A stretch of 64,000 nucleotides of DNA, from positions 64,001 through 128,000 of the forward strand of contig JAUVXW010000008.1 in the NCBI GenBank assembly GCA_030603385.1, written 5' to 3'. Shown one piece after another: positions 1,805-15,220 of the stretch (position 1 is the stretch's first letter; every line of letters starts with the position of its first letter). Both the position numbers and the translations under genes were made by a program. The stretch comes from Promethearchaeota archaeon (GTDB lineage Archaea > Asgardarchaeota > Lokiarchaeia > Sigyniarchaeales > SOKP01). Below the pieces are notes generated by a model. It was given only the letters and a program-made list of their open reading frames with translations, was not told where the DNA came from and did no database searches.

Positions 1805-2089
1805 ATGTCATTTATTAAACCTAAAATGAGAGAAACTATTTTTGGAGTAATTATTGGTAATCGCGATGTTTCTCCAGATAATCTCGCAGAAGAAGGACGA
1901 AAAGAGATCATCAGTGTCTTAGAAAATTGGGGGTATAAATATATTATATTGAATGAAAATGATACTAAATTCGGTGTTGTGGAAACATATGAAGACGCGA
2001 AGAAATGTGCTGAATTATTTAAGGCAAATAGTGATAAGATAATGGGTACTTCAGTTATTTTACCCAATTTTAGGGATGAAAACAATTAG
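1805..2089 (+). pseudogene. truncated N-terminal fragment of L-fucose/L-arabinose isomerase family gene
   Basis: About 55/92 identical residues, ungapped by manual count, with the N-terminus of 13784..15220; stops after 94 aa. Confidence 0.85.
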
Positions 2090-2353: not shown

Positions 2354-3784
2354 ATGACTGAAATTATTAAAAGTGGAGCAGGAATTCATGAAGGCTTCGA
2401 ATTTCAGTATTGGTATGGTGTGAAATTGATAATTGACTGGAAAATTTCACCACCAAAAGATTCAATAAACCCACCTTGGTTAAAAGAAGAGATTGGTAGA
2501 AATGAGTTTGGAATCTTTGATGATATTTTTATGTATAAAGATTCTGACTATTTTTTCTATCAAGCAAAAAAATCAGTTAGTACTAAGGGTGGGCTTATAG
2601 ATGAAAATGAATTATTAGATGATAAGTCTAGTCTATCGATTTTGGAAATGTATTTATCTTATAAGAAAATTAAGAAAAAATTTCCTGATGAAAATTTTTA
2701 TTTAATAAATGTATCAAATAAAGCAATTTCAGGAATATTAAGAGAAATAATTGTTCCTAATGAAAATAGAATAGAAGATTCATTTATTAAAAACAGCATT
2801 AAAAAAGATGAAAAAATTAAATTAAGAGAAGCAATTAAGGAAAAATGTGGTGGAAATGAGCTTAATGATTTTTTGAAAAGACTTCGATTTATCCATTTTG
2901 AAAATCCTGAATTTGAGGTAAAACATAAACCAATTCTCCCATTAAATATAATTCAAAACGTATTCAATTGGGTAAAGAAGATTGCACAAAAGAAATTCAC
3001 AAATTCAGAGAATAAAATTTCCTATGGAGATTTTCAATTTTTATTAAATATCAATGAATTAGAAGTACCTTTAAGATTAGGATTTTACTCAAAATCCGAA
3101 TTTCCATCAGAAATTTTATATGATTATTCAATCGACTTTTATTCCCAGATAGATGGAACCCTAAATGATATTGATTGGAATAAGTTCAGAGAAGAAATTG
3201 AGGATTTACGAAAAAAAATTATCAAAGAGAGTCAAAATCGTTTAATCCGAATTGAAGCATTATCTCATCTTACATTAGGATATATTATTGGATTTGTTTT
3301 TAGATCTACAACTGGCTTCAAATTGCAGGTTCTTCAACGATTTAAAGATCTTGAGGAAATTTGGGAATACGAATCAAATAATCGCTATAAAATTGAGAAA
3401 GATATTGATATTAGAGTAGAAATGTCAGATATTAATTCTAAAAATTTAATAATTTGTATGGAATTTACTGAAAAACCTATTAAGCATTTCATAAAAGAAT
3501 ATTTAACTAATTATAAAATAGATTATAATCAAATTATTGAAATTGTAACAAAACCCCCAATTAAAGTAAATCAAGTTACTCCTTTAATCAATTTCATAAT
3601 TGAATTGATTTTAAAGGTTAAAACAATTAAGAAAGTACATATTTTTAATGCAATTCCATTAGCGTTAGCAATTTTATTGGGATATAATTTCAATGCATTG
3701 CCAACTATTCAATTATATGAATTTGACATGGTAGAGAGAAAATATATTCCAAGTTATATATTAAAACAAAAATTAGGTAGGTGA
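2354..3784 (+). CDS. cap4: CBASS effector: Cap4-like PD-(D/E)XK endonuclease fused to SAVED domain
   Basis: N-term GFEFQ...DD...QAK nuclease motif; C-term SAVED motifs (HLTLGYIIGFVF; VHIFNAIPLALAILLG...IQLYEF...YIPS); adjacent to CD-NTase. Confidence 0.8.
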   Translation: MTEIIKSGAGIHEGFEFQYWYGVKLIIDWKISPPKDSINPPWLKEEIGRNEFGIFDDIFMYKDSDYFFYQAKKSVSTKGGLIDENELLDDKSSLSILEMYLSYKKIKKKFPDENFYLINVSNKAISGILREIIVPNENRIEDSFIKNSIKKDEKIKLREAIKEKCGGNELNDFLKRLRFIHFENPEFEVKHKPILPLNIIQNVFNWVKKIAQKKFTNSENKISYGDFQFLLNINELEVPLRLGFYSKSEFPSEILYDYSIDFYSQIDGTLNDIDWNKFREEIEDLRKKIIKESQNRLIRIEALSHLTLGYIIGFVFRSTTGFKLQVLQRFKDLEEIWEYESNNRYKIEKDIDIRVEMSDINSKNLIICMEFTEKPIKHFIKEYLTNYKIDYNQIIEIVTKPPIKVNQVTPLINFIIELILKVKTIKKVHIFNAIPLALAILLGYNFNALPTIQLYEFDMVERKYIPSYILKQKLGR

Positions 3785-3790
3785 AAAATT

Positions 3791-4780
3791 ATAGCAAATA
3801 CAGTAAGTCAAGCTTTTGATGAATTTAGGCAAAATTTAGAACCATTAAAGCCAGAAAAAGAGAAAATTCAAAAAAGACATAAATATATAAGAGAAACATT
3901 TAGCAACAAAATAAAGAATGATGGAAGAATGCATTCATTCTTATCTGGGTCATACTCTCGTAATACTCAAATAAGACCTATTAATGATGTGGATATAGTA
4001 ATATTGTTTGATATAGAGGAATATTGGGATCAATTTAAAAACAACCCACGTGAGATGCTCAATTTTACAGGAGAAAAATTAAAAGAAACTTATCCAGATA
4101 AAGATATAATAATTCAATCTCATTCTATTGGAATTAAATTCAAGGATCTTCCCGATGTAGATGTTATACCTGGATTTATTAAGGATTATAATAAGGAAAT
4201 CTATTTAATTCCAAATTTTAAACTAAATAATTTCATTGAGACATCCCCTACTAAACATAAAGCTATTATCTCTAGATATAACCAAAATTTAGGGGACAAA
4301 TTCATTCACATCATAAAAATGATGAAATGTTGGAGGAACAAATTAATAAAAGAAAGCATGAGTAAATCTGGGATTGAATTAAAATTCAAATCTTTTCATT
4401 TAGAAATCTTTTTGATGAATATTTTAAAAAGTAGATTTTCTAATTATGCTAAAGCTATTCAACAAGTTTTTTCAAAAGCTGCTGAAAATTTAGACTGCGA
4501 GTGCTATGATCCTGCAGGGTTAAGTGGAAGATTAGATGGTTATTTAACAGATATTCAAATTAAAACTTTAAAGAATATCTTTAGCAATACCAGTGAAGAT
4601 ATCAAGAGTTTACTACGATTAGAAATGGAAGGTAAATATCAAGAAGCAATAGAAGGTTGGAGAGATCTTTTTGGAGATCAATTTCCTAAACCTCTAAAAA
4701 CAAATAAAAATACATATAAAAAAAACCTAAAAACAAAATTTCCAATAGAAGGAAAGAATTATACATACGGTGAAGAATAA
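3791..4780 (+). CDS. CBASS CD-NTase (cGAS/DncV-like nucleotidyltransferase); true start probably ATA at 3791
   Basis: GSYSRNT-x-IRPINDVDI motif, third Asp in VDVIP, KSFHLE, DPAG, WRDLFG. Frame is open from 3785 and encodes ANTVSQAFDEFRQNLEP; SD GGTGA at 3780-3784. Confidence 0.9.
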   Translation: MANTVSQAFDEFRQNLEPLKPEKEKIQKRHKYIRETFSNKIKNDGRMHSFLSGSYSRNTQIRPINDVDIVILFDIEEYWDQFKNNPREMLNFTGEKLKETYPDKDIIIQSHSIGIKFKDLPDVDVIPGFIKDYNKEIYLIPNFKLNNFIETSPTKHKAIISRYNQNLGDKFIHIIKMMKCWRNKLIKESMSKSGIELKFKSFHLEIFLMNILKSRFSNYAKAIQQVFSKAAENLDCECYDPAGLSGRLDGYLTDIQIKTLKNIFSNTSEDIKSLLRLEMEGKYQEAIEGWRDLFGDQFPKPLKTNKNTYKKNLKTKFPIEGKNYTYGEE

Positions 4781-6625
4781 ATGTTATTTCAATGGTATAA
4801 AACTGAAATAGATTTATACCATAAAGAACTGTTAATAATTAAAGAAGAAATAAAGGATTTTTTTCCCTACGGCTATGAAAAAAATGATGATTTATGTATT
4901 GTTGGTATTATAGATGTAGATGGAAAAGAAGAAAATATCTTAATTTCATATCCTAGAATTTATCCTTCTTCTCCACCAAAGGTATGGTTATTTGAATCTA
5001 ATGAATTTAAAAAAGTTAAAGATTTTCAGGAACATTTTCATCAAAATTATGATGAATCCTTATGTCTCTTCACATCAGATTGGGGTGATGGAAGCTGGCA
5101 TTTTAATATGGATACTCATGATGTTCTTGAAAAACTAAGAGATACAATAAGAAAAGCTAGAACTAAGGAACATACCGATGAACATACTTCGATTATTAAT
5201 CCTGTTCCGGGTAAACTTAGATATGATTTTGAAATTTATATACCCGCTGAAATTTTAAACTACATAATAAAAAATGACAAAAGTCTAGATAAACTTGAAT
5301 TATACGAATTTTCAAAAAATTATCAAGGTCGTATATTAAAATTTCCTTCTAAATATAACGTTATGGAAAAAATTTTTGAAGGAAATTTTTGGTCAAATTT
5401 TAATTTATTGAACAATCCATTAAAAGGATATTATCTTAAATTGCCATTTAATAAAAATGAATTTCGAAAGGAATTAGCAAAAGAAAAGAATCTAATTATA
5501 TTTTTAAAAAACTATGGCTTTAATGAACAAATAATGTTAGAATTAGATTTTATCTTTTTTGTTTTTAAAGATACCAGAGTTCCTAACAGTAGAGTTAAGA
5601 ACCCTAAAGAATTTGAAAATCTAATATCTTTTGCTTATTTTTTAAGAAATACAGATTTATCAAACATCTACAAAATCCCTATTTATCAAATATTTTCAGT
5701 TAAATTCCCAGATGATATTTTTCAAAGAACTAATGCAATTTTTGATACGTTAATAAATAAGATAAGGAACAAAAAGATCTTAATTTTAGGTTTAGGAACT
5801 CTTGGTTCATTTATAGTTTTGGAATTGGTAAAATCAGGAATTAAAAATTTTATTTTATATGATTTCGATATATTTCAAACGATAAATATATGTCGCCATG
5901 TTGGAGATATCACAGATATTGGAAGGTATAAAGTGGAAGTTGTTGAAGAAATTATCAGATTAAAAAACCCAGATGTAAATGTTAAAAAATCTATACGAAA
6001 TCCTTTTGAAAAAGATAAGTATTTGTTGGAGTTTATTGAAGATTTGAAGAAATCAGATATAATCATTGATACGACTGCCAGTTATCAAGTAAATTTACAA
6101 TTAAATAAAATTTCTATTGAAAATAACAAAAATGTGATATATTCTTGGTGTGGACCTAATGCAGAAGTTGGTAGAGTATTTAGGGTCATTCCTAGAAAAA
6201 CTCCTTGTTACTATTGTATAAATCTTCAATTAGAAAAAGAACCTCAAAAATTCCCTAGAATAAAAAAGCAGAATTTAGAATTTGAATTACCTCAATTTGT
6301 AGGATATCGTCAACCAGGAATTCCAGGAATCAGTATTGATATAAATTTTATTAGTTTATTTGCTTCAAGATTAGTGATTCAAACACTTTTAATTGATGAG
6401 GATGCTTACCCTGATGCAAAAGCAAATCATTATATCTGGCAAAATAAACCTACAGAAATTGAACCATTTGATGAGATTAAATTAATACCTCAAGGAGATT
6501 TTAGAATGATTAAGAGATGTCCATTTTGTAAACCAAAATCAAAAAAAATGTTTAATCCACAAAAAAAAATTCAAATTGATGTTATACTAAAGAGAGGAAA
6601 AAAAAATTTTAGGAAAATCAAATAA
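4781..6625 (+). CDS. cap2: CBASS Cap2-like E2-E1 (ThiF) fusion
   Basis: E2-like YPxxYPxxPP...H...LCL; E1 GLGTLGS, DFD, NICRH, CYYC and CPFC Zn motifs. Confidence 0.85.
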   Translation: MLFQWYKTEIDLYHKELLIIKEEIKDFFPYGYEKNDDLCIVGIIDVDGKEENILISYPRIYPSSPPKVWLFESNEFKKVKDFQEHFHQNYDESLCLFTSDWGDGSWHFNMDTHDVLEKLRDTIRKARTKEHTDEHTSIINPVPGKLRYDFEIYIPAEILNYIIKNDKSLDKLELYEFSKNYQGRILKFPSKYNVMEKIFEGNFWSNFNLLNNPLKGYYLKLPFNKNEFRKELAKEKNLIIFLKNYGFNEQIMLELDFIFFVFKDTRVPNSRVKNPKEFENLISFAYFLRNTDLSNIYKIPIYQIFSVKFPDDIFQRTNAIFDTLINKIRNKKILILGLGTLGSFIVLELVKSGIKNFILYDFDIFQTINICRHVGDITDIGRYKVEVVEEIIRLKNPDVNVKKSIRNPFEKDKYLLEFIEDLKKSDIIIDTTASYQVNLQLNKISIENNKNVIYSWCGPNAEVGRVFRVIPRKTPCYYCINLQLEKEPQKFPRIKKQNLEFELPQFVGYRQPGIPGISIDINFISLFASRLVIQTLLIDEDAYPDAKANHYIWQNKPTEIEPFDEIKLIPQGDFRMIKRCPFCKPKSKKMFNPQKKIQIDVILKRGKKNFRKIK

Positions 6626-6738
6626 GATTTTCAACTCGGAGAAAACCTTTCTTTAATATACAATTTCGAATAAAATATAGAATAGTTAACTAATGAATAT
6701 TTCTTGCGATTTTTGAAATCAAACCTAAAGAAAATATT

Positions 6739-7212
6739 ATGAAAAATAAATATAAATTAGAAATTTCTAAATTTTTAGTTAATAAATTGTTAGATTTTTC
6801 ATCTAAAACTAATAATGAAGTCTGTGGAGTTCTAATTGGAAAAGAAATAAAATATAATCATATAATAATAACTGATGTAATTCTTGATAAGAATTCACTT
6901 AATGCTTCAAGATTTTCTGTAACTAGAAATACAAAAGGGCTATATCCAAATGTTAAAGAAATAGTTGAATATTCCGTTTATGATAATGTTGATTTTATTG
7001 GGGATTGGCATTCTCATCCTTACGGTTCTAGTTTATATAGTTCTATAGATTACTATTCTATGATTACCATGCTAAAAGATCCCGATTATTACTTTTTAAA
7101 TTCAATTGTTTTGATAATTGTATGTCCTCCAAATAAGATTAATAGTTTTCTGTTTCAAAGGGATAAAAAAAAGCCTCAAAAGATTGAAAATTATTCAAAA
7201 TCAATTAATTGA
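6739..7212 (+). CDS. cap3: CBASS Cap3-like JAB/MPN+ isopeptidase
   Basis: EVCGVLIG and GDWHSHP-x6-SSID JAMM motif; last gene of the operon. Confidence 0.88.
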   Translation: MKNKYKLEISKFLVNKLLDFSSKTNNEVCGVLIGKEIKYNHIIITDVILDKNSLNASRFSVTRNTKGLYPNVKEIVEYSVYDNVDFIGDWHSHPYGSSLYSSIDYYSMITMLKDPDYYFLNSIVLIIVCPPNKINSFLFQRDKKKPQKIENYSKSIN

Positions 7213-7260
7213 TTAAAAATTTCCTTGTAAAATACTCCTTAATTCTTTTTATACATTAGT

Positions 7261-7278
7261 TTAAAGTCGAAACTTTAA
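7261..7278. terminator. short hairpin TTAAAGT-CGAA-ACTTTAA between convergent genes
   Basis: Perfect 7-bp inverted repeat; function not established. Confidence 0.3.
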
Positions 7279-7383
7279 TTCAATATTGTTCTTTAAATAT
7301 TGAAATACTCCTAAATATCTACCTTATTCCATGCTTTATAATATCAGTGTTTAGTAGATAAGAATTTCTTAATTGTAAGTAAT

Positions 7384-8442
7384 TCATGATTTAATATATT
7401 CGAATATTGTCTCTTTTTCTCCTTGATCATTTAAGACATAACCCTCTTCTAAAGCAATTAGCATTTCATCTAATAAGTGTAATTTACGAATCGTTTCTTG
7501 CTTTTGTAAACTAAAATTCTCATGGGCAAATGGATTTCTGATCCTTTTGAAACAACTTTTAAAATAGTTTTTATAATCTTTTTGCTTCTCTTTTCCCTCC
7601 ACTGTAGAAATATCATCCAAGAATATAACTGGACTATTTTCTGAGAATATCTGTTCAATTAATTGAACTCCAAAATTTCTTTTTAAGCCTTTTTTTTTAT
7701 TTACTTTCTTTAATATTTGCTCAATTTCATTATCAACTGCAGCAATTGATTTATCAAAAAAACCTTTTTTAAACAATCTATAAGCCTCATTAATTATTAT
7801 GTCATGAAAATAATTCCATGGATAATTTTTATTTGAAATTCTCCTGAATATTAATAATAGACAAAATAGAAATATCATAATGATAAAAGATAATAAATAC
7901 CAAAACCTCTCAAAAGTAATCAATTTATAAATAATATCAATATCTACATTGTTGTTATTTGGCTCAATAACAATGTATATAGGATCATTGAATAAATCTT
8001 TATAATCTAAAATTAATGAGAAAGACCCCAATAATTTATTATTTTGATGCGAAATGTAATTAATATCATCCAAATATCCATTTTGAGCTTTTATTTCTAA
8101 ATATTTTGTATATTGTGCTGAATTCAGGATGTAAACATCAATTATATTATCTCCCTTGTAAGATACGAATAATTCTGAATATGGGAGTATTACAGGATGA
8201 TTTATTCTAATTTCCTGAACAAAATAACTGTCATATCTTATGTCCTGATCATAAGATGAATCTTCTAATTTATAAATTGGAAGAGTAAAAATCGGTGTTA
8301 ACAACCATAAAAATATGTTTAAGAATAAACCTATAACTATTACTACAATAAATAAATTGTATAAATTATTATCTAAGTAATTATTTATTCTGGTTTTGAA
8401 TGGTAATTTAATATCCTCAGTTTTCTTTTTGGAATTCTTCAT
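7384..8442 (-). CDS. two-TM membrane protein with C-terminal TIGR02391 (Ymh-type HEPN) domain
   Basis: Two hydrophobic segments flank a ~125-aa loop. C-term H..I....RLF..G.F..SI, GVQLIEQIFSENSP, and IRNPFAH (RxxxxH). Confidence 0.75.
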   Translation of the reverse strand: MKNSKKKTEDIKLPFKTRINNYLDNNLYNLFIVVIVIGLFLNIFLWLLTPIFTLPIYKLEDSSYDQDIRYDSYFVQEIRINHPVILPYSELFVSYKGDNIIDVYILNSAQYTKYLEIKAQNGYLDDINYISHQNNKLLGSFSLILDYKDLFNDPIYIVIEPNNNNVDIDIIYKLITFERFWYLLSFIIMIFLFCLLLIFRRISNKNYPWNYFHDIIINEAYRLFKKGFFDKSIAAVDNEIEQILKKVNKKKGLKRNFGVQLIEQIFSENSPVIFLDDISTVEGKEKQKDYKNYFKSCFKRIRNPFAHENFSLQKQETIRKLHLLDEMLIALEEGYVLNDQGEKETIFEYIKS

Positions 8443-8633
8443 TGTTTTTACGAATTTTTGTTGATTTCTATAAAATGTAAAATAGGAAGGATTTATTAAA
8501 TTTATTTACATTATTGATAAAAATTCATTAAAAGACTAAATAATATTTAAATATAAGATTAATTTATTTGAGTTCAAAGATCCTTGATTTACTGCATCTA
8601 TAGTTAGGTGAGTAAGACTAAAATATAATTGAT

Positions 8634-9410
8634 ATGTTTAAACCAAATAAAGATCGGACGTATCTGATAACATATATTGATATTCTTGGATTTGAAGCAT
8701 TCCTTGAAAATCATTCTTTATCAGAAGTTTATGATAAGATGTACAGTTTATTGAAAGCTTTAAAAAATACTAAAGTACAAGGTGTAGTTGAAATTAAATA
8801 TGATAAAAATGTATCTAAAGTCTTTCAAGATTATATAACAAACATTCCCTATTTTTTGTTTAGTGACTCTGTATTGATTTATAAAGAAATAGGGGAGGAT
8901 CACCAACCCAATCTTAGTCCCGAAGATACAGTATTTGGTGAAATGATCATGTCGTTAGAAGAAATCTTTAAGAGTGCATTTAAACAAAGAATTTTTATAA
9001 GAGGAGGACTAGCTTACGGAAAAGCGATAATTCAACCAGGTTCTCAAGGGATTAATAATATTTTAGTTGGCAAACCAATTATTAATGCTTATAAAACAGA
9101 AGAAGCTCAAAATTGGATGGGATGTGCTTTTCATGAATCTTGTAGAGATCTTATTGAAAATTCAATATACACAAAGGATTTTTTAGTACCATATCCCATC
9201 CCATTAAAAAATGAATGTCCGATTCTCAATTATGCATTGGGCTGGGTGGATAGTAGTATAAAAGATTTAAAATCTATGTTTGAAAATTGGGAAACATTTA
9301 AGCCCCACCATGAAGTTATTAAATCTAATACTATGGAGTTTTTTGAAGATAGTAAAGATAGAAGCCCCCGATGGTTAGGATTTGGAATTGATTTTCATAT
9401 GAATTTATAA
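8634..9410 (+). CDS. class III nucleotidyl (adenylate/guanylate) cyclase-like protein
   Basis: YIDILGF, FSDS, IRGGLAYG and GKPIINAYKTE motifs. Confidence 0.7.
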   Translation: MFKPNKDRTYLITYIDILGFEAFLENHSLSEVYDKMYSLLKALKNTKVQGVVEIKYDKNVSKVFQDYITNIPYFLFSDSVLIYKEIGEDHQPNLSPEDTVFGEMIMSLEEIFKSAFKQRIFIRGGLAYGKAIIQPGSQGINNILVGKPIINAYKTEEAQNWMGCAFHESCRDLIENSIYTKDFLVPYPIPLKNECPILNYALGWVDSSIKDLKSMFENWETFKPHHEVIKSNTMEFFEDSKDRSPRWLGFGIDFHMNL

Positions 9411-9923
9411 GAACACTGTGATTCCTTTAAAATTCTATATAAGGTCTCGATACTCATTTTAATTCAGAGATAGGAAAAATTAATCATTGTAAACCATCAA
9501 CCTTCTCCCTCAAACCATATAATATATTTATGCCCAGAACTTTCTTTAAATCTTTTTTTATTACATTTGCTAATTTTGTACTCACCTTTTCAACTTATTT
9601 TCTTACTTTTCTTACTTTCCTAATATATTTAAACTTAATTATAAAAATATAAGCAGACTTTTTATTCAACCATTATATTTATTTAAAACATATATTATAT
9701 CAGTTATATTTTAAAATATATAATAGCTACAGCTTATTACAGCAAGAATATTACTCAAAAAAGAGAAAAAAATGAAAATTTTAGCAGTCCATAGAACTAA
9801 TGGTAATACTAAATTTCTTAAAGTGTTTTTAAATCAAATTATGAGAGGTCAAACAAAATCTTCTTAATTAAAGGATTTTTTTAGTATTGTAAATGATATA
9901 TTTCTGGTGCATTTCATTATATA

Positions 9924-10478
9924 TTAAATAATAGGGCTGATAACATGAGTACAATTTGGATGTTGGGGTATTGTTTTTGCATAACGATTATAATTTTCGT
10001 TTTCATATATATCAATAAGCTTATTGTATAAAGGCTTCACTTTATGTTTTTTTCCTGCCATCTCCGTAGTACATAATGTATTATGATCTTCATACTGAGA
10101 ATGTGGAATAAAGCAATCCTCTTCTCCAGAATCATTTAAAATCTCCATAACTGCTTGATTATAAAATCTGCTTAATTGGATTCGTACCAAGCGTTCTGCC
10201 CAATCTCGAGTAAATACTCTACTATTATCTGCATATTTTGATGTATTTCTAGGTATTTTATTTTGAACTTGATGGTATGCTGTATTTAAATCAGGAATTT
10301 CTCCCATTATCAATTTTTGAAGAATCTTAATAAATTCCTTTTTTCTACTCTCCTCTTCGATTACTTTTCCTGCTGTTGGTCTAGTTTCGATTAATTTTAT
10401 TATTTTATTCTTTAGTTTATGATTTTTTGATAAAACATGTAATATTTCATAAAAGTTATTGGCATATAGCTCACTCAA
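9924..10478 (-). CDS. hypothetical protein with C-terminal HPNCTH metal-binding motif
   Basis: 184-aa ORF, TTG start after AGGCGG; CFIPH...C...HPNCTH. Confidence 0.7.
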   Translation of the reverse strand: MSELYANNFYEILHVLSKNHKLKNKIIKLIETRPTAGKVIEEESRKKEFIKILQKLIMGEIPDLNTAYHQVQNKIPRNTSKYADNSRVFTRDWAERLVRIQLSRFYNQAVMEILNDSGEEDCFIPHSQYEDHNTLCTTEMAGKKHKVKPLYNKLIDIYENENYNRYAKTIPQHPNCTHVISPII

Positions 10479-11172
10479 TTTAATTTACCGCCTACTATAT
10501 TTTATTATTTTTTCATTTTTAAATTAATATTTTCTATAATACTATTTTGAGATACTTAAGGTTTGTAGGTGGTATGGAAATTTAAATATATGTTGTATTT
10601 GGATAATAGCCTACTATTAATGGGAATCCCGACCTTAGGATCCTGAACTGCATGGTGATACCAGGTTTCGTATCGTCTTTATCCTGAAAAGATCGCTTTC
10701 CTCTCATATCACTTGAACTTATAATGTCGATCACATACAAAAATATACACCTCATTTCATTAATATTAGAGATCTTTACATTATAGGTTTTTTTTTTCAT
10801 ATTTAATTAAAAATAATAAAATCTCAAGATCTAAAATAGTTTATAGTAGTATAAAGTATTTTCAGCTTATAATTATTTACAAAATTTAAGGGAAGTTTAT
10901 AAAGAAAGAATTAAAGAAAAGATCTTTAAGTTATTTATAAAGGCAAAATTGTACGATGCAAAAAATGAAAGTATATAAACACATAATCATATATAATTGA
11001 ATAGATGTGGAATTAGCTAAATTTAAACATATAAAATTTATGTATATAATCATTAGATTATTAAAAATAGGTTTTCTTGATAAAAATGCAAAATATTTGA
11101 ATTTTTATAGGAGATTTTTTAAATTATATAAAAATTGATTAATATTCGTATATTTAAAACATTCTTAGACAA

Positions 11173-13689
11173 ATGAAAGATAAAAACATAGAAAAAGAAA
11201 ACAGTTATCAAGAAGGAAAAGAAAGATATTCAAATGGAAAGGCATTTCAAAATGAATTGCATATTAATGGGTATTATAATTGTGATAATCAAGAATTAGA
11301 CAATATGGATTTACAACATAATACCGATGAAATCCCTGTTTCCGGAGAAATATTTGATTATCTAAAATCTTGGGACAAAGAATTTAAAGACAATAATAAA
11401 AGCTATTGTGTTAAACAACAGGACAAATTAAATGAAAGTAATGATTATTATGAGAAGGATGTCTATAAAACAAGCCAATCATCGGAAAATAGTGAACCAA
11501 ATGTTTGTAATAAGTTGTTTAACACTGATTGTAAGGAAAATACTGATAATATTGTAAAAGAATCATTTGTAGTCTCGCTAAGTCTAAGAGATAAATTGTT
11601 TGAAGATTTCTTAGTCCAGAAAGAAGATATCGAAAAATGTAAGTATATCCCAAAATTTAGAGATTTCCAAAATATACCTAAATATGAAGGGCTTACCAAA
11701 AAATACTTTAGTCATGTTAGAAATGAATGGTTCAGGGAAATTCTGCATAAGGATAGCTTTATAGAATACCGAAATGAAATAATGTTAAAAAATTTTTTTC
11801 AAAATGATAAAAAGTTATTTAATTTAATCCAGAGTAATCAATATCCTGAAGGTGTTCTAATTTATAATCTTATTAAACATTTAGATTTATCGTTTCCAAA
11901 ATTAGAAAAAGCAATTTATGGAACTAATAACAATAATATAATAAGAGTATTACAAAATCTAGGTGTCTTTAAATGGGAAGGTTTAACCTCAAAAATTAAG
12001 AGTTTCATTTTATCAATAAAGGACATATCTTTAAAACAACAAGCTATAAAAGAGTTCCAGAAATACTTAAAAACTAAAGTTTATAATGGGTTTAAACGAA
12101 ATAATTTTCCAAGAATTGAAAAATTTACATTAAAAGATTATCCAGAAGGTTGGTTAATTTTGAAATTATGTGAAATCAGTTTAATTTCTGATACAAAATT
12201 AGGAAAATTGATTGATTATAGTGATTTACCTTATCACTTAACAGAATTAAGACGTTTCAAAGGAAATAGAATTGAGAGCATAAAGAATTTTATCTCTAAT
12301 ATCGATGATAAAGAAAAAAAAGAGAAATCTTTTGTAATTCTATCGAATTATATTAAGTTTATTGTATTTTCTCAACTTAATAGAGAGGGTGTAAAAGAAA
12401 TCGATGAATTTTTGGATATTAATCCAAAAAAATGGTTAATATATAATTTATGTGTTATTTATTTAATAGTAATTCGAGATTTTGGTAAAAAAATTGATTA
12501 TAAAGATATTATAACATCTGTTCACACACGATATGACTTTTCAGATATAATAATCAAAAGAATTCGCAACTTTATAAATAAAACAGATGATCTCCAGAAA
12601 AAAGAGATTGCGACGCAAGTTTTGAGTATATATTTGAAGAGAGCCATTTATAATAAATTAAAACAAATTGATTTACCTAATTACAAAAAATTCAAAAGTA
12701 AGATGCACCCTGCACTATGGTTAATAGTTCAGATTTGTTCGATTTATTTACTACATCCTTTTGAGTTAGAAAAGCTCATTAATTATAGTGAATTATCAAA
12801 ACGCTTGAAAGTTATATCGTATTTTACTAATACCACAATAACTAAACTTAGAAAGTTTATTAGGTATAGTGGGACATCGAAACAAAGACAAATAGCTAGA
12901 GATATAATAAATAGATTTCTTGAGGTTAGAAATGAAGAATTTCAAAGATATACTGGACCAAAGGTTCAGAATTTAAAAATGATAAATAATTATTCTGAAT
13001 TGGTCAATCATTTAGAATATGTATATAAATTAGGAACATTTCCTGAAGAAATTTTAGAAGGATATCATGAATATCCACGTATATCAAGATTTAACCAACA
13101 ATTTAGATTTATTTCCATTGAAAAGAAGAGAGTTTTTATTAAAAAAATGATTTCAGATGGATTAATCAAAAAAGTTGACAGCAACGATTCTAAAATTCAT
13201 AATTCAGTTTATAACTTAATAGAATTATCAAAAAATAAGTATTATAAACCTTCTGAGATTTATAATACACACAATAGCCCTGGTCATGAGTCTGTTTTAA
13301 ATAAAATATTAGAGGAAGATTCTAATTCCGTATGTCTGGAAATTCCTATTTGGATGTGGCATAAAGACCATTACTTGACAGGTCATATTGATTTAATCCT
13401 TGTCATGGATGATATCATATATATATGCGATTATAAACCGGAAGAGACTCCAATTCCCGAAACTACTCGATTATCATATTCATTCATGAGATCTATTCCA
13501 CAAGTGGCCTCATATGCATTAGTTTTAAAGAATTTATTTAACATTACTGATATAATGTGCATTACATTCAATAAAAGTGGAGCTTGGATATATGAACCAA
13601 AAACAACTTTAACACACTTAAACAATTTTATTAAAAAAAATAAACAATATAAAGCGAGTGATAGACCTTGGGAAAAGTATTTCCTATGA
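11173..13689 (+). CDS. large protein with four ~95-aa internal repeats and C-terminal PD-(D/E)XK (Cas4/RecB-like) nuclease
   Basis: H...EIPIW...TGHIDL...ICDYKP...QVASYA motif; repeats begin YPEGVLIY / YPEGWLIL / NPKKWLIY / HPALWLIV. Confidence 0.75.
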   Translation: MKDKNIEKENSYQEGKERYSNGKAFQNELHINGYYNCDNQELDNMDLQHNTDEIPVSGEIFDYLKSWDKEFKDNNKSYCVKQQDKLNESNDYYEKDVYKTSQSSENSEPNVCNKLFNTDCKENTDNIVKESFVVSLSLRDKLFEDFLVQKEDIEKCKYIPKFRDFQNIPKYEGLTKKYFSHVRNEWFREILHKDSFIEYRNEIMLKNFFQNDKKLFNLIQSNQYPEGVLIYNLIKHLDLSFPKLEKAIYGTNNNNIIRVLQNLGVFKWEGLTSKIKSFILSIKDISLKQQAIKEFQKYLKTKVYNGFKRNNFPRIEKFTLKDYPEGWLILKLCEISLISDTKLGKLIDYSDLPYHLTELRRFKGNRIESIKNFISNIDDKEKKEKSFVILSNYIKFIVFSQLNREGVKEIDEFLDINPKKWLIYNLCVIYLIVIRDFGKKIDYKDIITSVHTRYDFSDIIIKRIRNFINKTDDLQKKEIATQVLSIYLKRAIYNKLKQIDLPNYKKFKSKMHPALWLIVQICSIYLLHPFELEKLINYSELSKRLKVISYFTNTTITKLRKFIRYSGTSKQRQIARDIINRFLEVRNEEFQRYTGPKVQNLKMINNYSELVNHLEYVYKLGTFPEEILEGYHEYPRISRFNQQFRFISIEKKRVFIKKMISDGLIKKVDSNDSKIHNSVYNLIELSKNKYYKPSEIYNTHNSPGHESVLNKILEEDSNSVCLEIPIWMWHKDHYLTGHIDLILVMDDIIYICDYKPEETPIPETTRLSYSFMRSIPQVASYALVLKNLFNITDIMCITFNKSGAWIYEPKTTLTHLNNFIKKNKQYKASDRPWEKYFL

Positions 13690-13783: not shown

Positions 13784-15220
13784 ATGTCATTTATACAGCA
13801 TAAAGAATTGAAATCATATTTTGGGATTATTTTAGGAAATAGAGACGTATTTCCAAATCATTTAGTAAAAGAAGGTAGAAAAGATATTATAGATGTAATG
13901 AATGAATTAGGATATCACTATGTTATTTTAGATGAGGAAGCCACACCACTGGGGGCAGTTGAGACGTACTCAGATGCTAAGAAATGTGCAGAACTTTTCA
14001 AAAAGAATTCTGATAAAATTTTGGGGATAATTTTATGTCTTTGCAATTTTGGTGACGAGAAAGCCGTAGCCAACACACTAAAACTTGCTGATCTCAATGT
14101 TCCTGTTTTAATTCAAGCATGTTCAGATGAGATTAGTAAGATGGATCGAGAACATCGAAGAGATGCGTTTTGTGGAAAAATTTCTGTTACAAGCGTATTA
14201 TATCAACATGGAATTCCATTTACTCTAACAAAATATCACACTTGCGCAATAAAATCGGATTTTTTCAAAGATGATCTTCACCGATTTGAAAAAATATGCA
14301 AGATTGTGAGCAAGCTTAGGAATGCGAGGTTGGGTCAAATTGGCACAAGACCCAATGCATTTGAGACTGTTAGATATAGTGAAAAAATTTTGGAATTTAA
14401 CGGGATAAGTGTAGAACCAATAGATCTATCAGAAATTTTTGGATTAATTGAAAAATTAAAGGATAATGATCCAAAAGTAAAAGATAAGATTGACATTATA
14501 AAGAATTATACCTCTACATCTTCATTTCCAGAAGATGGTATTCTTAAACTTGCAAAATTAGCTGTTGTTATTGAAAATTGGGTAAAAACAAATGACTTAG
14601 ATGGATTTGCTTTTCAGTGCTGGCCTTCAATACAAGATAACTTTGGGATCGTCCCATGTGCTGTCATGAGTATGTTTAGCGAAGGACTTATTCCAGCAGC
14701 GTGTGAAGTCGATATCTCGGGATTAATAAGTATGTTAATATTACAAATTGCTTCTGAAACGCCCTCAGCAATTTTAGACTGGAATAATAATTATGGAGAT
14801 GATCCTAATAAAATGGTTCTATTCCATTGCAGTAATTTACCAAAATCTTTTTTTCAAGATACGCGAATGACTATTCATCCCATAATTTCTGATCAAAAAG
14901 GTGGAGAGGTAAGTTTTGGAGCAATTCAAGGTCGTATTAAAACCAAACCTTGTACATTATTAAGGATTGAAACAGATGACTTATATGGTGATATTAAAGC
15001 CATCATAGCAGAAGGAAAATATACTGAGGATTCTCTAAACACTTTTGGAGGATACGGAGTAGTTGAGATTCTTAATTTACAATTCTTATTGAAATCTCTA
15101 TGTTTAGGAGGATTCGCTCATCATGTAGCATCAACTTTAAATGAAGTTGGTGATATTGTCTATGAAGCTATTTCAAAATATCTTAATTATAACGTAGAAT
15201 TTCATAATAAGAATATTTAA
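13784..15220 (+). CDS. L-fucose/L-arabinose isomerase family protein
   Basis: RRDAFCGKIS, QCWP, ACEVD, FHCSN, GFAHH motifs. Confidence 0.8.
   Translation: MSFIQHKELKSYFGIILGNRDVFPNHLVKEGRKDIIDVMNELGYHYVILDEEATPLGAVETYSDAKKCAELFKKNSDKILGIILCLCNFGDEKAVANTLKLADLNVPVLIQACSDEISKMDREHRRDAFCGKISVTSVLYQHGIPFTLTKYHTCAIKSDFFKDDLHRFEKICKIVSKLRNARLGQIGTRPNAFETVRYSEKILEFNGISVEPIDLSEIFGLIEKLKDNDPKVKDKIDIIKNYTSTSSFPEDGILKLAKLAVVIENWVKTNDLDGFAFQCWPSIQDNFGIVPCAVMSMFSEGLIPAACEVDISGLISMLILQIASETPSAILDWNNNYGDDPNKMVLFHCSNLPKSFFQDTRMTIHPIISDQKGGEVSFGAIQGRIKTKPCTLLRIETDDLYGDIKAIIAEGKYTEDSLNTFGGYGVVEILNLQFLLKSLCLGGFAHHVASTLNEVGDIVYEAISKYLNYNVEFHNKNI

What the first reader, a model, noticed from the sequence alone, without database searches (positions are those of the whole stretch)
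7384..9410. Candidate undescribed signalling/defence module: receptor-like TM-HEPN protein divergent from a class III cyclase-like gene, beside CBASS
Seen: two genes share a ~190-bp divergent spacer just downstream of CBASS. One has TM / ~125-aa loop / TM / TIGR02391-like domain with intact RNPFAH. The other keeps the two metal-binding Asp motifs (DILGF, FSDS) of class III cyclases. Known: HEPN RxxxxH domains are dimerisation-activated RNases, and class III cyclases make the messenger in Pycsar. Inference: a membrane sensor that activates a cytoplasmic RNase, and/or a second nucleotide signal acting alongside CBASS. There is no cNMP-binding domain, so this is not canonical Pycsar, and I do not recognise the architecture as a named system.
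Basis: partly seen in the sequence, partly recalled or inferred. Interest (0 to 1): 0.78.

Follow-up and report, generated by a model that had tools for sequence, protein, structure and literature searches.

The report
Two solo defence-type genes beside CBASS

Summary
Gene 7384-8442(-) encodes a 352-aa protein with two hydrophobic helices, a ~127-aa beta-rich loop and a Ymh-type HEPN domain (Pfam PF09509, 48 bits) with an invariant RNPFxH motif. Gene 8634-9410(+) encodes a soluble 258-aa protein whose model matches class III cyclase catalytic domains (Z 15.7). It has no Pfam, NCBIfam or PADLOC hit. It belongs to a very large unnamed family (10,019 cluster representatives) that keeps both metal-binding Asp and an Arg. 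The canonical transition-state Asn/Arg positions are not conserved. Its one tested distant relative is the PanT toxin of Burkholderia prophage phi52237.

The closest HEPN homologue (90% nt identity) matches the window only across 7304-8519, a one-gene cassette in other surroundings. None of four other HEPN contexts holds a cyclase-like gene. None of 11 other cyclase-family contexts holds a Ymh HEPN gene or CBASS. Among 300 other genomes of the phylum sampled, one carries both families, on different contigs. The adjacent type II CBASS already has its own Cap4-like SAVED effector.

Best reading: two independent, horizontally moving conflict genes stacked in a defence island bracketed by isomerase gene copies. 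This scan has met the cyclase-fold family before on other DNA. Interest is moderate to low.

The parts
7384..8442 (-). P0001: 352-aa membrane-anchored Ymh-type HEPN protein (TM1, beta-rich outward loop, TM2, cytoplasmic HEPN)
   Evidence: dN/dS 0.28 against the L001 orthologue.
8287..8361 (-). TM helix 1 (about residues 28-52)
   Evidence: Hydropathy peak 3.0 at residues 30-48, conserved in P0021, P0023 and P0172. Helix 15-52 in the model.
7903..8286 (-). Beta-rich loop domain (about residues 53-180), predicted to face outward; possibly a GOLD/EMP24- or DUF1883-like beta-sandwich
   Evidence: Strands 74-174 in the model. Weak Foldseek hits to p24 GOLD domains, E 2e-3. Weak Atlas lead to EMP24. 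The same domain follows a signal peptide in a 576-aa membrane protein of G025: 31% identity, E 2e-6, sub-threshold DUF1883.
7846..7902 (-). TM helix 2 (about residues 181-199), followed by RRISNK
   Evidence: Hydropathy peak 2.8 at 180-198 and the positive-inside rule.
7468..7809 (-). HEPN domain, Ymh family (residues 212-325)
   Evidence: PF09509 E 1.2e-12, 48.2 bits (cut-off 25). PADLOC PD-Lambda-3_B 3.3e-6 and Aga_HEPN 4.7e-4.
7522..7539 (-). Rx4H motif RNPFAH (R302-H307)
   Evidence: R302, N303, P304, F305 and H307 are invariant in five homologues.
7304..8519 (.). Extent of the P0001 one-gene cassette: the gene plus about 80 bp on each side
   Evidence: blastn of L001 against the window gives 89.7% identity over 7304-8519 only; L005 covers 7377-8508. 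The upstream alignment is conserved for only about 80 nt before the ATG.
8443..8633 (.). 191-bp divergent spacer. The first 77 bp travel with P0001; the rest lies on the P0002 side.
   Evidence: The sigma-70 scan is uninformative: 23 sites found against 23.6 expected, in an archaeon.
8634..9410 (+). P0002: soluble 258-aa protein with a class III cyclase fold, member of a large unnamed family
   Evidence: AF2 model pTM 0.79. Foldseek prob 1.0, E 1.3e-7 to CyaC and guanylate cyclases. VIA Z 15.7 with 3et6_B. 10,019 representatives at E<=1e-3. No Pfam, PADLOC or NCBIfam hit.
8679..8693 (+). DILGF (residues 16-20), first metal-binding Asp motif
   Evidence: D16 is 100% conserved, L18 98%, G19 99%, F20 97% in 160 members. 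It aligns to FADIVGFT of adenylate cyclase 9.
8862..8867 (+). S77-D78, second metal-binding Asp motif
   Evidence: S 99%, D 100%.
9000..9002 (+). R123, invariant Arg in the RxGhxxG motif
   Evidence: 100% conserved. It aligns to the RxGI motif of CyaB and AC9.
9108..9122 (+). Family-specific QxWxG motif (Q159, W161, G163)
   Evidence: Q 97%, W 100%, G 100%. The match to the PanT relative stops just before this motif.
2354..7212 (+). Complete type II CBASS: Cap4-like SAVED effector, CD-NTase, Cap2 (E1/E2) and Cap3 (JAB). Neighbour, not part of the pair.
1805..2089 (+). 5' fragment of a fucose-isomerase-family gene; left border of the island
   Evidence: 60% identity over 92 aa to the start of 13784-15220, E 2e-36.
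13784..15220 (+). Intact L-fucose-isomerase-family gene; right border of the island
   Evidence: PF02952 E 5e-20.

Best explanation
The 2-kb stretch holds two unrelated single-gene cassettes, inserted back to back next to a self-sufficient type II CBASS. They lie in a defence island of an Asgard-type archaeon, bracketed by a 5' fragment and a full copy of an isomerase gene.

(1) P0001 is a membrane-tethered HEPN RNase of the Ymh family. Its predicted layout is N-terminus in, TM1, an outward ~127-aa beta-sandwich domain, TM2, and a cytoplasmic HEPN domain with an intact Rx4H site. HEPN sites are formed across a dimer. I therefore infer that the outward domain or the membrane controls dimerisation. 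An envelope event such as virus attachment or entry would then switch on RNA cleavage and stop growth, as in abortive infection. The logic resembles Ire1/RNase L without the kinase.

(2) P0002 is a soluble member of a very large, unnamed sister family of class III nucleotidyl cyclases. It keeps the two-metal centre (D16, D78), R123 and K192. It lacks the conserved transition-state Asn/Arg pair and has its own QxWxG and YxVPxK motifs. I infer that it is a self-contained NTP-using enzyme whose product or NTP consumption is toxic when unleashed. This matches its one tested distant relative, PanT of prophage phi52237, which blocks transcription and translation.

Shown here: gene reality, folds, motifs, cassette boundaries and the lack of co-occurrence. 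Inferred: RNase activity, topology, the trigger, the chemistry of P0002 and a role in defence.
For: Independence
- L001 (86% aa, 89.7% nt) matches the window only at 7304-8519; L005 matches only 7377-8508. The upstream alignment is conserved for only about 80 nt before the ATG.
- No P0002-family hit in L001, L002, L005, L030 or L041.
- The 54% P0002 homologue has a same-strand neighbour 33 bp upstream, not a divergent HEPN gene.
- Neighbours in 11 other cyclase-family contexts are heterogeneous: UbiA, NucS_C nuclease, an integron-cassette-like protein, an integrase and others.
- In the phylum sample, the P0002 family is in 7 of 301 genomes and Ymh HEPN in 8 of 301. Apart from G000, only G159 has both, on different contigs.
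- None of 22 sampled congeners has P0002, and one has a degenerate P0001 relative.

Folds and families.

PanT link: hmmsearch 24-30 bits; hhalign 95.6% probability, E 1.3e-8 over 128 columns. Toxicity of PanT is reported in PMC8832971.

Defence or mobile setting of the cyclase family
- CBASS here.
- A dCTP deaminase 3 kb away in L006 (PADLOC 1.5e-60).
- PDC-S41 and PDC-M62A flanking a DUF262 fusion on a Bacillus plasmid.
- An integrase-adjacent cargo position in six gut contigs.

Ymh HEPN as a conflict domain: PMC3710099. PD-lambda-3, whose B protein matches P0001, is used as an abortive-infection control in PMC13190303.

CBASS has its own effector: SAVED plus a sub-threshold Cap4_nuclease match.
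Against: - Comparative contexts are few and many contigs are short. L031 and L032 are under 1.6 kb, so a partner elsewhere in those genomes cannot be excluded.
- Adjacency with a divergent spacer would allow co-regulation in this genome.
- No activity has been tested for either protein.
- The P0001 model is poor (pTM 0.36), so the loop fold and the dimer idea are weak.
- No antitoxin-like partner for P0002 is visible, so if it is toxic, how it is held in check is unexplained.
- The link to PanT covers only the N-terminal two thirds of the domain.
Confidence: 0.65

Rival explanations
1. The first reader's module: P0001 and P0002 work together. Either a membrane sensor/RNase is driven by, or drives, a cyclase-made nucleotide signal, or the pair supplies a second signal alongside CBASS.
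For: The two genes are divergent with a 191-bp spacer and lie directly after CBASS. The cyclase fold with its metal Asp residues and the intact HEPN motif are real.
Against: - No co-occurrence in any other context examined.
- The P0001 cassette boundary lies inside the spacer.
- The cytoplasmic part of P0001 is only the HEPN domain, with no CARF, SAVED or cNMP-binding hit.
- PADLOC has no model for the pair.
Confidence: 0.08
2. A Panoptes/PanDA-like guard of CBASS. P0002 constitutively makes a nucleotide that keeps the two-TM effector P0001 off. Viral sponges or nucleases that deplete nucleotides would then release the RNase.
For: The gene grammar is the same as in Panoptes (mCpol + 2TM-beta) and PanDA (minimal DAC + 2TM-beta): a small cyclase-type gene plus a two-TM protein. 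Panoptes is reported to co-occur strongly with CBASS (PMC12657230, PMC13640721).
Against: - P0001 orthologues exist without P0002 in three other loci, which an unrepressed toxic effector should not tolerate.
- The beta-rich domain lies between the TM helices and so faces outward, away from a cytoplasmic ligand.
- P0002 resembles class III cyclases (Z 15.7) more than Cas10 palm domains (Z 8.4).
- No S-2TM-beta or SAVED hit in P0001.
Confidence: 0.05
3. P0002 is an ordinary housekeeping signalling cyclase (for example cAMP), and P0001 is a housekeeping envelope-stress RNase. Neither has to do with virus defence.
For: The class III fold and metal residues. The receptor-like topology of P0001. A related outward domain occurs on another membrane protein of the phylum.
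Against: - Both are sporadic: 7 and 8 of 301 genomes, and P0002 in none of 22 congeners.
- Both lie in a bracketed island with CBASS.
- P0002 has no PF00211 hit, and the Asn/Arg positions are not conserved.
- Relatives sit in defence islands and mobile elements.
- The Ymh family is known from conflict contexts.
Confidence: 0.1
4. P0001 acts like SNIPE rather than as an abortive-infection sensor. It would be a constitutively membrane-tethered nuclease kept away from bulk cellular RNA, acting on viral nucleic acid or transcripts at the entry site.
For: The membrane tether plus a nuclease domain parallels SNIPE, where removing the TM domain makes the nuclease toxic (PMC13190303).
Against: HEPN domains are RNases, and most archaeal viruses inject DNA. 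The matching PADLOC model, PD-lambda-3_B, belongs to an abortive-infection system. No data bear on this directly.
Confidence: 0.12

Closest known systems
Ymh family of HEPN domains (Pfam PF09509 / TIGR02391; Anantharaman et al. [quoted passage not shown]
   Same: The C-terminal domain passes the Pfam threshold and keeps the Rx4H motif. It matches PADLOC PD-Lambda-3_B (E 3.3e-6). It lies in a conflict/defence setting.
   Different: [quoted passage not shown] No PD-lambda-3 A partner is present. Only five sequences with this architecture were found, plus one degenerate relative.
Class III adenylyl/guanylyl cyclase catalytic domain (Pfam PF00211; e.g. 3et6, 1wc1, 3r5g) and the Pycsar cyclases (7r65, 8jsf, 8jsz)
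   Same: Same fold: Z 15.7 with 3et6_B, 12.3-12.5 with Pycsar cyclases. The FxDIxGF-type and xSD metal motifs and the RxGhxxG Arg are present.
   Different: No PF00211 or Pycsar HMM hit. The motif-aligned transition-state Asn and Arg positions are I/V and variable. No base-specifying Lys. The family has its own QxWxG and YxVPxK motifs. There is no adjacent cNMP-binding effector.
PanT of Burkholderia prophage phi52237 (YP_293707.1), the 'putative nucleotide cyclase' toxin of a PanA-PanT type II toxin-antitoxin pair (PMC8832971)
   Same: Profile-profile match at 95.6% probability over the catalytic core (DILGFK, FSD, RGGIAxG, GxxxxDAYxxE). It is the only experimentally tested relative. It is carried by a mobile element.
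   Different: The similarity stops before the QxWxG motif. PanT is 314 aa and is translationally coupled to a DUF4065 antitoxin, whereas P0002 has no such neighbour.
Panoptes (mCpol + 2TM-beta) and PanDA (minimal DAC + 2TM-beta) guard systems that accompany CBASS
   Same: A small nucleotide-cyclase-type gene next to a two-TM protein gene, beside CBASS.
   Different: A different cyclase fold, a different effector (HEPN, with its beta domain facing outward), and no conserved pairing.
Ire1 / RNase L (KEN-type HEPN RNases switched on by sensor-driven dimerisation)
   Same: A sensor domain on the far side of a membrane or regulatory module, coupled to a HEPN RNase that needs dimerisation. This is an analogy of logic only.
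   Different: No kinase domain, a different HEPN family, two TM helices, and no evidence of common descent.

Membership tests
HEPN superfamily, Ymh family (PF09509) | Match to the family profile above the curated threshold | tested here: met
   PF09509 48.2 bits against a cut-off of 25, E 1.2e-12. TIGR02391 scores 37.8 bits, just under its 39.45 cut-off.
HEPN superfamily, Ymh family (PF09509) | Conserved Rx4-6H catalytic motif | tested here: met
   RNPFAH at residues 302-307. R, N, P, F and H are invariant in five homologues.
HEPN superfamily, Ymh family (PF09509) | All-alpha HEPN fold | tested here: inconclusive
   The model shows helices across 208-333, but pTM is 0.36 and Foldseek gave no HEPN hit.
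HEPN superfamily, Ymh family (PF09509) | RNase activity | not testable with these tools
   Needs an in vitro or in vivo assay with R302/H307 mutants.
Class III nucleotidyl cyclases (PF00211) | Cyclase homology domain fold | tested here: met
   VIA Z 15.7, 175 residues aligned, rmsd 3.0 with 3et6_B. GGDEF domains reach at most 9.8 and Cas10 8.4. Foldseek prob 1.0.
Class III nucleotidyl cyclases (PF00211) | Two metal-binding Asp residues | tested here: met
   D16 and D78 are 100% conserved. D16 aligns to the FADIVGF Asp of AC9.
Class III nucleotidyl cyclases (PF00211) | Match to the family profile | tested here: not met
   No Pfam hit at E<=0.1 for P0002, and none in 42 family members. The best PDB profile hits have E 0.36-0.6.
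Class III nucleotidyl cyclases (PF00211) | Transition-state Asn and Arg on helix 4, and the base-specifying Lys/Asp or Glu/Cys pair | tested here: inconclusive
   By motif alignment (GxxhNxAxRxE against G146...A152...E156), the Asn position is I/V/T and the Arg position is E/L/K. Equivalence was not checked residue by residue on structures.
Class III nucleotidyl cyclases (PF00211) | NTP cyclisation activity | not testable with these tools
   Needs an enzyme assay.
Pycsar | PycC-type cyclase recognised by system models | tested here: not met
   No PADLOC hit for P0002 or for 42 relatives. Structural similarity to PycC is Z 12.3-12.5, below that to ordinary cyclases.
Pycsar | Adjacent effector with a cyclic-nucleotide-binding domain | tested here: not met
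   P0001 has only PF09509. P0007 has no family hit.
Panoptes / PanDA | mCpol (Cas10-palm) or DAC synthase, a 2TM-beta effector, and conserved pairing | tested here: not met
   Class III cyclases outrank Cas10 (Z 15.7 against 8.4). P0001 has no S-2TM-beta or SAVED hit. The pairing was not seen in any other context.
PanAT type II toxin-antitoxin | Toxin homologous to PanT(phi52237) | tested here: met
   hhalign 95.6%, E 1.3e-8 over 128 columns; hmmsearch 24-30 bits. The relationship is distant and covers the core only.
PanAT type II toxin-antitoxin | Adjacent DUF4065 (Panacea) antitoxin | tested here: not met
   No DUF4065 hit in P0001 or P0007. No ORF of 60 aa or more lies in 9411-9923.
Type II CBASS (the neighbour) | CD-NTase, Cap2 E1/E2, Cap3 JAB and an effector | tested here: met
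   PADLOC Cyclase 6.9e-56, E1-E2 1e-29, JAB 2.1e-22; SAVED 4.8e-19; Cap4_nuclease 2.4e-4, sub-threshold.

The most novel reading that the evidence does not exclude
A third kind of Panoptes-like guard. A class III cyclase-fold enzyme would constitutively make a nucleotide that holds a two-TM HEPN RNase off, watching over the neighbouring CBASS in an Asgard archaeon. The pairing would have to be very young or lineage-specific, because no other locus shows it.
Probability: 0.05. Interest if true: 0.85.

Novelty: new variant of a known kind. Interest (0 to 1): 0.36.

Why it matters
It removes a tempting but unsupported new signalling system, and leaves two leads.

First, a receptor-like, membrane-spanning HEPN RNase is an architecture not listed in the 2013 HEPN survey. 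It was found here only in Asgard-type archaeal sequences. If envelope events switch on an RNase, that would be an Ire1-like logic in prokaryotic immunity.

Second, P0002 adds an archaeal member to a very large family (over 10,000 cluster representatives). The family has a cyclase fold but an altered active site and no Pfam, NCBIfam or PADLOC model. Its single tested distant relative is a toxin of unknown chemistry. Working out what these enzymes make or consume would name a large block of dark matter in defence islands.

The complete type II CBASS with Cap2/Cap3 in an Asgard archaeon is also worth recording.

Tried and rejected
- mCpol/Panoptes idea for P0002: rejected. Class III cyclases give Z 15.7, GGDEF at most 9.8 and Cas10 8.4.
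- Sequence searches of both proteins against the PDB: nothing significant.
- tblastn of P0002 against phages: no match. Against plasmids: one hit, a DUF262 fusion.
- Metagenome scan with P0002: only two near-identical short contigs.
- P0007 as a partner of P0002: synteny is seen only in a 97%-identical contig (L039) and not beside the 54% homologue.
- P0008-like 815-838-aa proteins as partners of P0001: only the C-terminal PD-(D/E)XK domain is shared with the G276 protein, and there is no match in L001.
- Sigma-70 promoter and terminator scan: at chance level, and not applicable to an archaeon.
- Repeat search for cassette ends: only short AT-rich chance-like repeats.
- 16S rRNA was not found in this assembly. 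Assignment to Asgard-type archaea rests on six TFB genes and four actin-family genes.
- The P0001 full-length model was too poor for firm fold calls.
Full report
**Observation.** The window has about 25% G+C. ORF 7384-8442(-) (P0001, 352 aa) and ORF 8634-9410(+) (P0002, 258 aa) are divergent, with a 191-bp spacer. Upstream lies a complete type II CBASS:
- a SAVED effector at 2354-3784 (PF18145, 4.8e-19), whose N-terminal half gives a sub-threshold Cap4_nuclease match (2.4e-4);
- a CD-NTase at 3929-4780 (PADLOC Cyclase, 6.9e-56);
- Cap2 E1/E2 at 4781-6625;
- Cap3 JAB at 6739-7212.

The whole block 2354-13689 is bracketed by a 92-aa 5' fragment (1805-2089) and an intact copy (13784-15220) of a fucose-isomerase-family gene. 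The two copies are 60% identical, E 2e-36.

The genome is a 3.9-Mb assembly (94% complete, 7% contamination). It carries six TFB genes and four actin-family genes, the best at 441 bits. Neither bacterial nor ordinary archaeal control genomes gave any actin match. I therefore read it as an Asgard-type archaeon.

**P0001.**
- Membrane topology: hydropathy peaks at residues 30-48 and 180-198 are conserved in all homologues. The N-terminus (7 K/R against 3 D/E) and the stretch after the second helix (RRISNK) are positive. This gives an N-in/C-in topology with an outward loop of about 127 aa.
- HEPN domain: the C-terminal domain passes the Pfam threshold for Hypoth_Ymh (48.2 bits, cut-off 25). It also matches PADLOC PD-Lambda-3_B (3.3e-6) and Aga_HEPN. 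Ymh is one of the HEPN families with a conserved Rx4-6H site (PMC3710099). PD-lambda-3 is used as an abortive-infection control in PMC13190303. R302-N-P-F-x-H307 is invariant in the five sequences with this architecture (86, 70, 70 and 43% identity).
- Model: the AlphaFold model is poor (pTM 0.36). It shows helix 15-52, strands 74-174, helix 175-205 and a helical C-terminal domain.
- Loop domain: it gives only weak leads to beta-sandwiches. These are p24 GOLD domains (Foldseek E 2e-3) and an EMP24-carrying Atlas cluster (score 0.84).
- Support for an outward loop: a 576-aa protein of another genome of the phylum has the same domain directly after a signal peptide, followed by a polytopic membrane domain. 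The match is 31% identity, E 2e-6, with a sub-threshold DUF1883 hit.
- Selection: dN/dS against the closest orthologue is 0.28.

**P0002.**
- No Pfam, NCBIfam or PADLOC model matches it, nor any of 42 relatives. There is a weak hit to phrog_23933, of unknown function.
- A profile of nine homologues found 10,019 cluster representatives at E<=1e-3 and 4,433 at 1e-10. Most are 230-290 aa and stand alone.
- The model (pTM 0.79) matches class III cyclase catalytic domains: Foldseek prob 1.0, E 1.3e-7; VIA Z 15.7, 175 residues, rmsd 3.0 with 3et6_B. Pycsar cyclases reach Z 12.3-12.5, GGDEF domains at most 9.8 and Cas10 8.4. It is therefore a cyclase-homology-domain protein, not an mCpol or GGDEF protein.
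- Conservation over 160 members: D16, D78, R123, W161 and G163 are 100% conserved. S77, G19 and G146 are 99%, Q159 is 97% and K192 is 91%.
- By motif alignment to GxxhNxAxRxE, the canonical Asn position holds I/V/T and the Arg position holds E/L/K. The family thus keeps the metal and phosphate-binding residues but not the usual transition-state pair. This equivalence rests on motifs, not on a residue-level superposition.
It matches the family core at 24-30 bits (hmmsearch) and at 95.6% probability, E 1.3e-8 (hhalign). PMC8832971 shows that this protein is toxic, inhibits transcription more than translation, and is neutralised by a DUF4065 antitoxin. No such antitoxin lies next to P0002.

**Are the two genes a unit?** Five lines of evidence say no.
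- Cassette boundaries. The closest P0001 locus (L001, Loki's-Castle-type sediment, 89.7% nt identity) matches the window only across 7304-8519. That is the gene plus about 80 bp on each side, and the flanks are unrelated. L005 gives 7377-8508. The conserved upstream stretch, presumably the gene's own promoter, ends about 80 nt before the ATG, inside the shared spacer.
- P0001 contexts. None of L001/L002, L005, L030 or the congener locus L041 holds a P0002-family gene.
- P0002 contexts. The 54% homologue has a same-strand gene ending 33 bp upstream. The 30% archaeal homologue sits among unrelated genes, 3 kb from a defence-type dCTP deaminase. Six hits in the phylum have neighbours such as UbiA, a NucS_C nuclease and an integron-cassette-like protein. 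A bacterial member lies at the integrase end of a mobile element in six gut contigs. A Bacillus megaplasmid carries the domain fused to DUF262, between the PADLOC candidates PDC-S41 and PDC-M62A.
- Genome-level co-occurrence. In 301 genomes of the phylum, the cyclase family occurs in 7 and Ymh HEPN in 8. Apart from this genome, only G159 has both, on different contigs.
- No CBASS protein has a homologue in any of these contexts.

**Mechanistic arguments against a link.**
- The cytoplasmic part of P0001 is only the HEPN domain, so nothing there could read a nucleotide signal.
- Its beta domain faces outward.
- The CBASS has its own effector.
- A Panoptes/PanDA-style reading is attractive because those systems accompany CBASS (PMC12657230, PMC13640721). 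In that reading a constitutive cyclase represses a two-TM effector. It predicts that P0001 cannot exist without P0002, yet three other loci show it alone.

**Conclusion.** They are best read as independent mobile conflict genes stacked beside CBASS.
- P0001 is a rare receptor-like membrane HEPN RNase. It is probably an abortive-infection-type effector controlled through dimerisation. This is inferred.
- P0002 is an archaeal member of a huge unnamed cyclase-fold family related to the PanT toxin. Its chemistry is unknown, and toxic NTP-dependent activity is inferred.

Other agents of this scan have described the cyclase-fold family several times on other DNA, with the same 'stands alone' verdict. 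I reached that verdict here from my own contexts.

Noticed in passing
window 3782-3931: The CD-NTase reading frame is open from the SAVED gene's TAA stop (3782-3784) to the listed ATG at 3929, and it is the same frame as the SAVED gene. The 47 extra residues (KIIANTVSQAFDEF...) look like the N-terminal helix that the profiles expect, since the profile matches start at position ~46. They contain no ATG, GTG or TTG. Possible explanations are an ATT/ATA start, stop-codon read-through giving a fusion, or a sequencing error.
   Followed up: partly
window 2354-7212; genome G000: A complete type II CBASS (Cap4-like SAVED effector, CD-NTase, Cap2 E1/E2, Cap3 JAB) sits in what appears to be an Asgard-type archaeon (six TFB genes; four actin-family genes, best 441 bits).
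   Followed up: partly
window 11173-13689 (+) and L041:11132-13582 (-): An 838-aa protein with a C-terminal PD-(D/E)XK/Cas4-like nuclease motif and no other family hit. An 816-aa protein in congener G276 shares only that C-terminal domain (34% over 119 aa) and lies 1.6 kb from the degenerate HEPN relative.
   Followed up: partly
L036:19-1749 (-) (G025:C79): A 576-aa protein: a signal peptide, then the same beta-rich domain as the P0001 loop (IDLYLVNEDQHTKYL against IDVYILNSAQYTKYL; sub-threshold DUF1883), then a polytopic membrane domain. The outward domain is therefore a reusable module in this phylum.
   Followed up: partly
L041:8715-10636 (G276:C60): The P0001 relative in a congener (RNPSTH motif plus a C-terminal Cys4 cluster) lacks TM1 and most of the loop. 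Its 5' end overlaps a 425-aa ORF with a pP_pnuc_1-like N-terminus through a repeated EGKEGNAKR stretch. This could be a broken or rearranged copy, or an assembly artefact.
   Followed up: no
L021:7449-8765 (Bacillus wiedmannii plasmid p536, NZ_CP036072.1): A 438-aa protein annotated as DUF262 has the P0002-like cyclase-fold domain as its C-terminal 250 aa, in the position where GmrSD-type enzymes carry a nuclease. It lies between the PADLOC candidates PDC-S41 and PDC-M62A.
   Followed up: partly
L020:1597-3378 (G159:C89): A 593-aa archaeal protein carries the cyclase-fold domain at about residues 300-540, behind an N-terminal half with no family hit.
   Followed up: no
window 9501-9776: A 97.5%-identical metagenome contig (L032) matches the window at 8587-9500 and again at 9777-9825. 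On the contig those two matches are 256 bp apart and that stretch has no match to the window, so the 276 bp at 9501-9776 downstream of P0002 are replaced, not simply missing.
   Followed up: no
window 9924-10478 (-): A 184-aa ORF (P0007) with a TTG start and Cys/His-rich C-terminal half has no family hit. It is conserved at 98% next to P0002 in contig L039, but absent beside the 54% P0002 homologue.
   Followed up: partly
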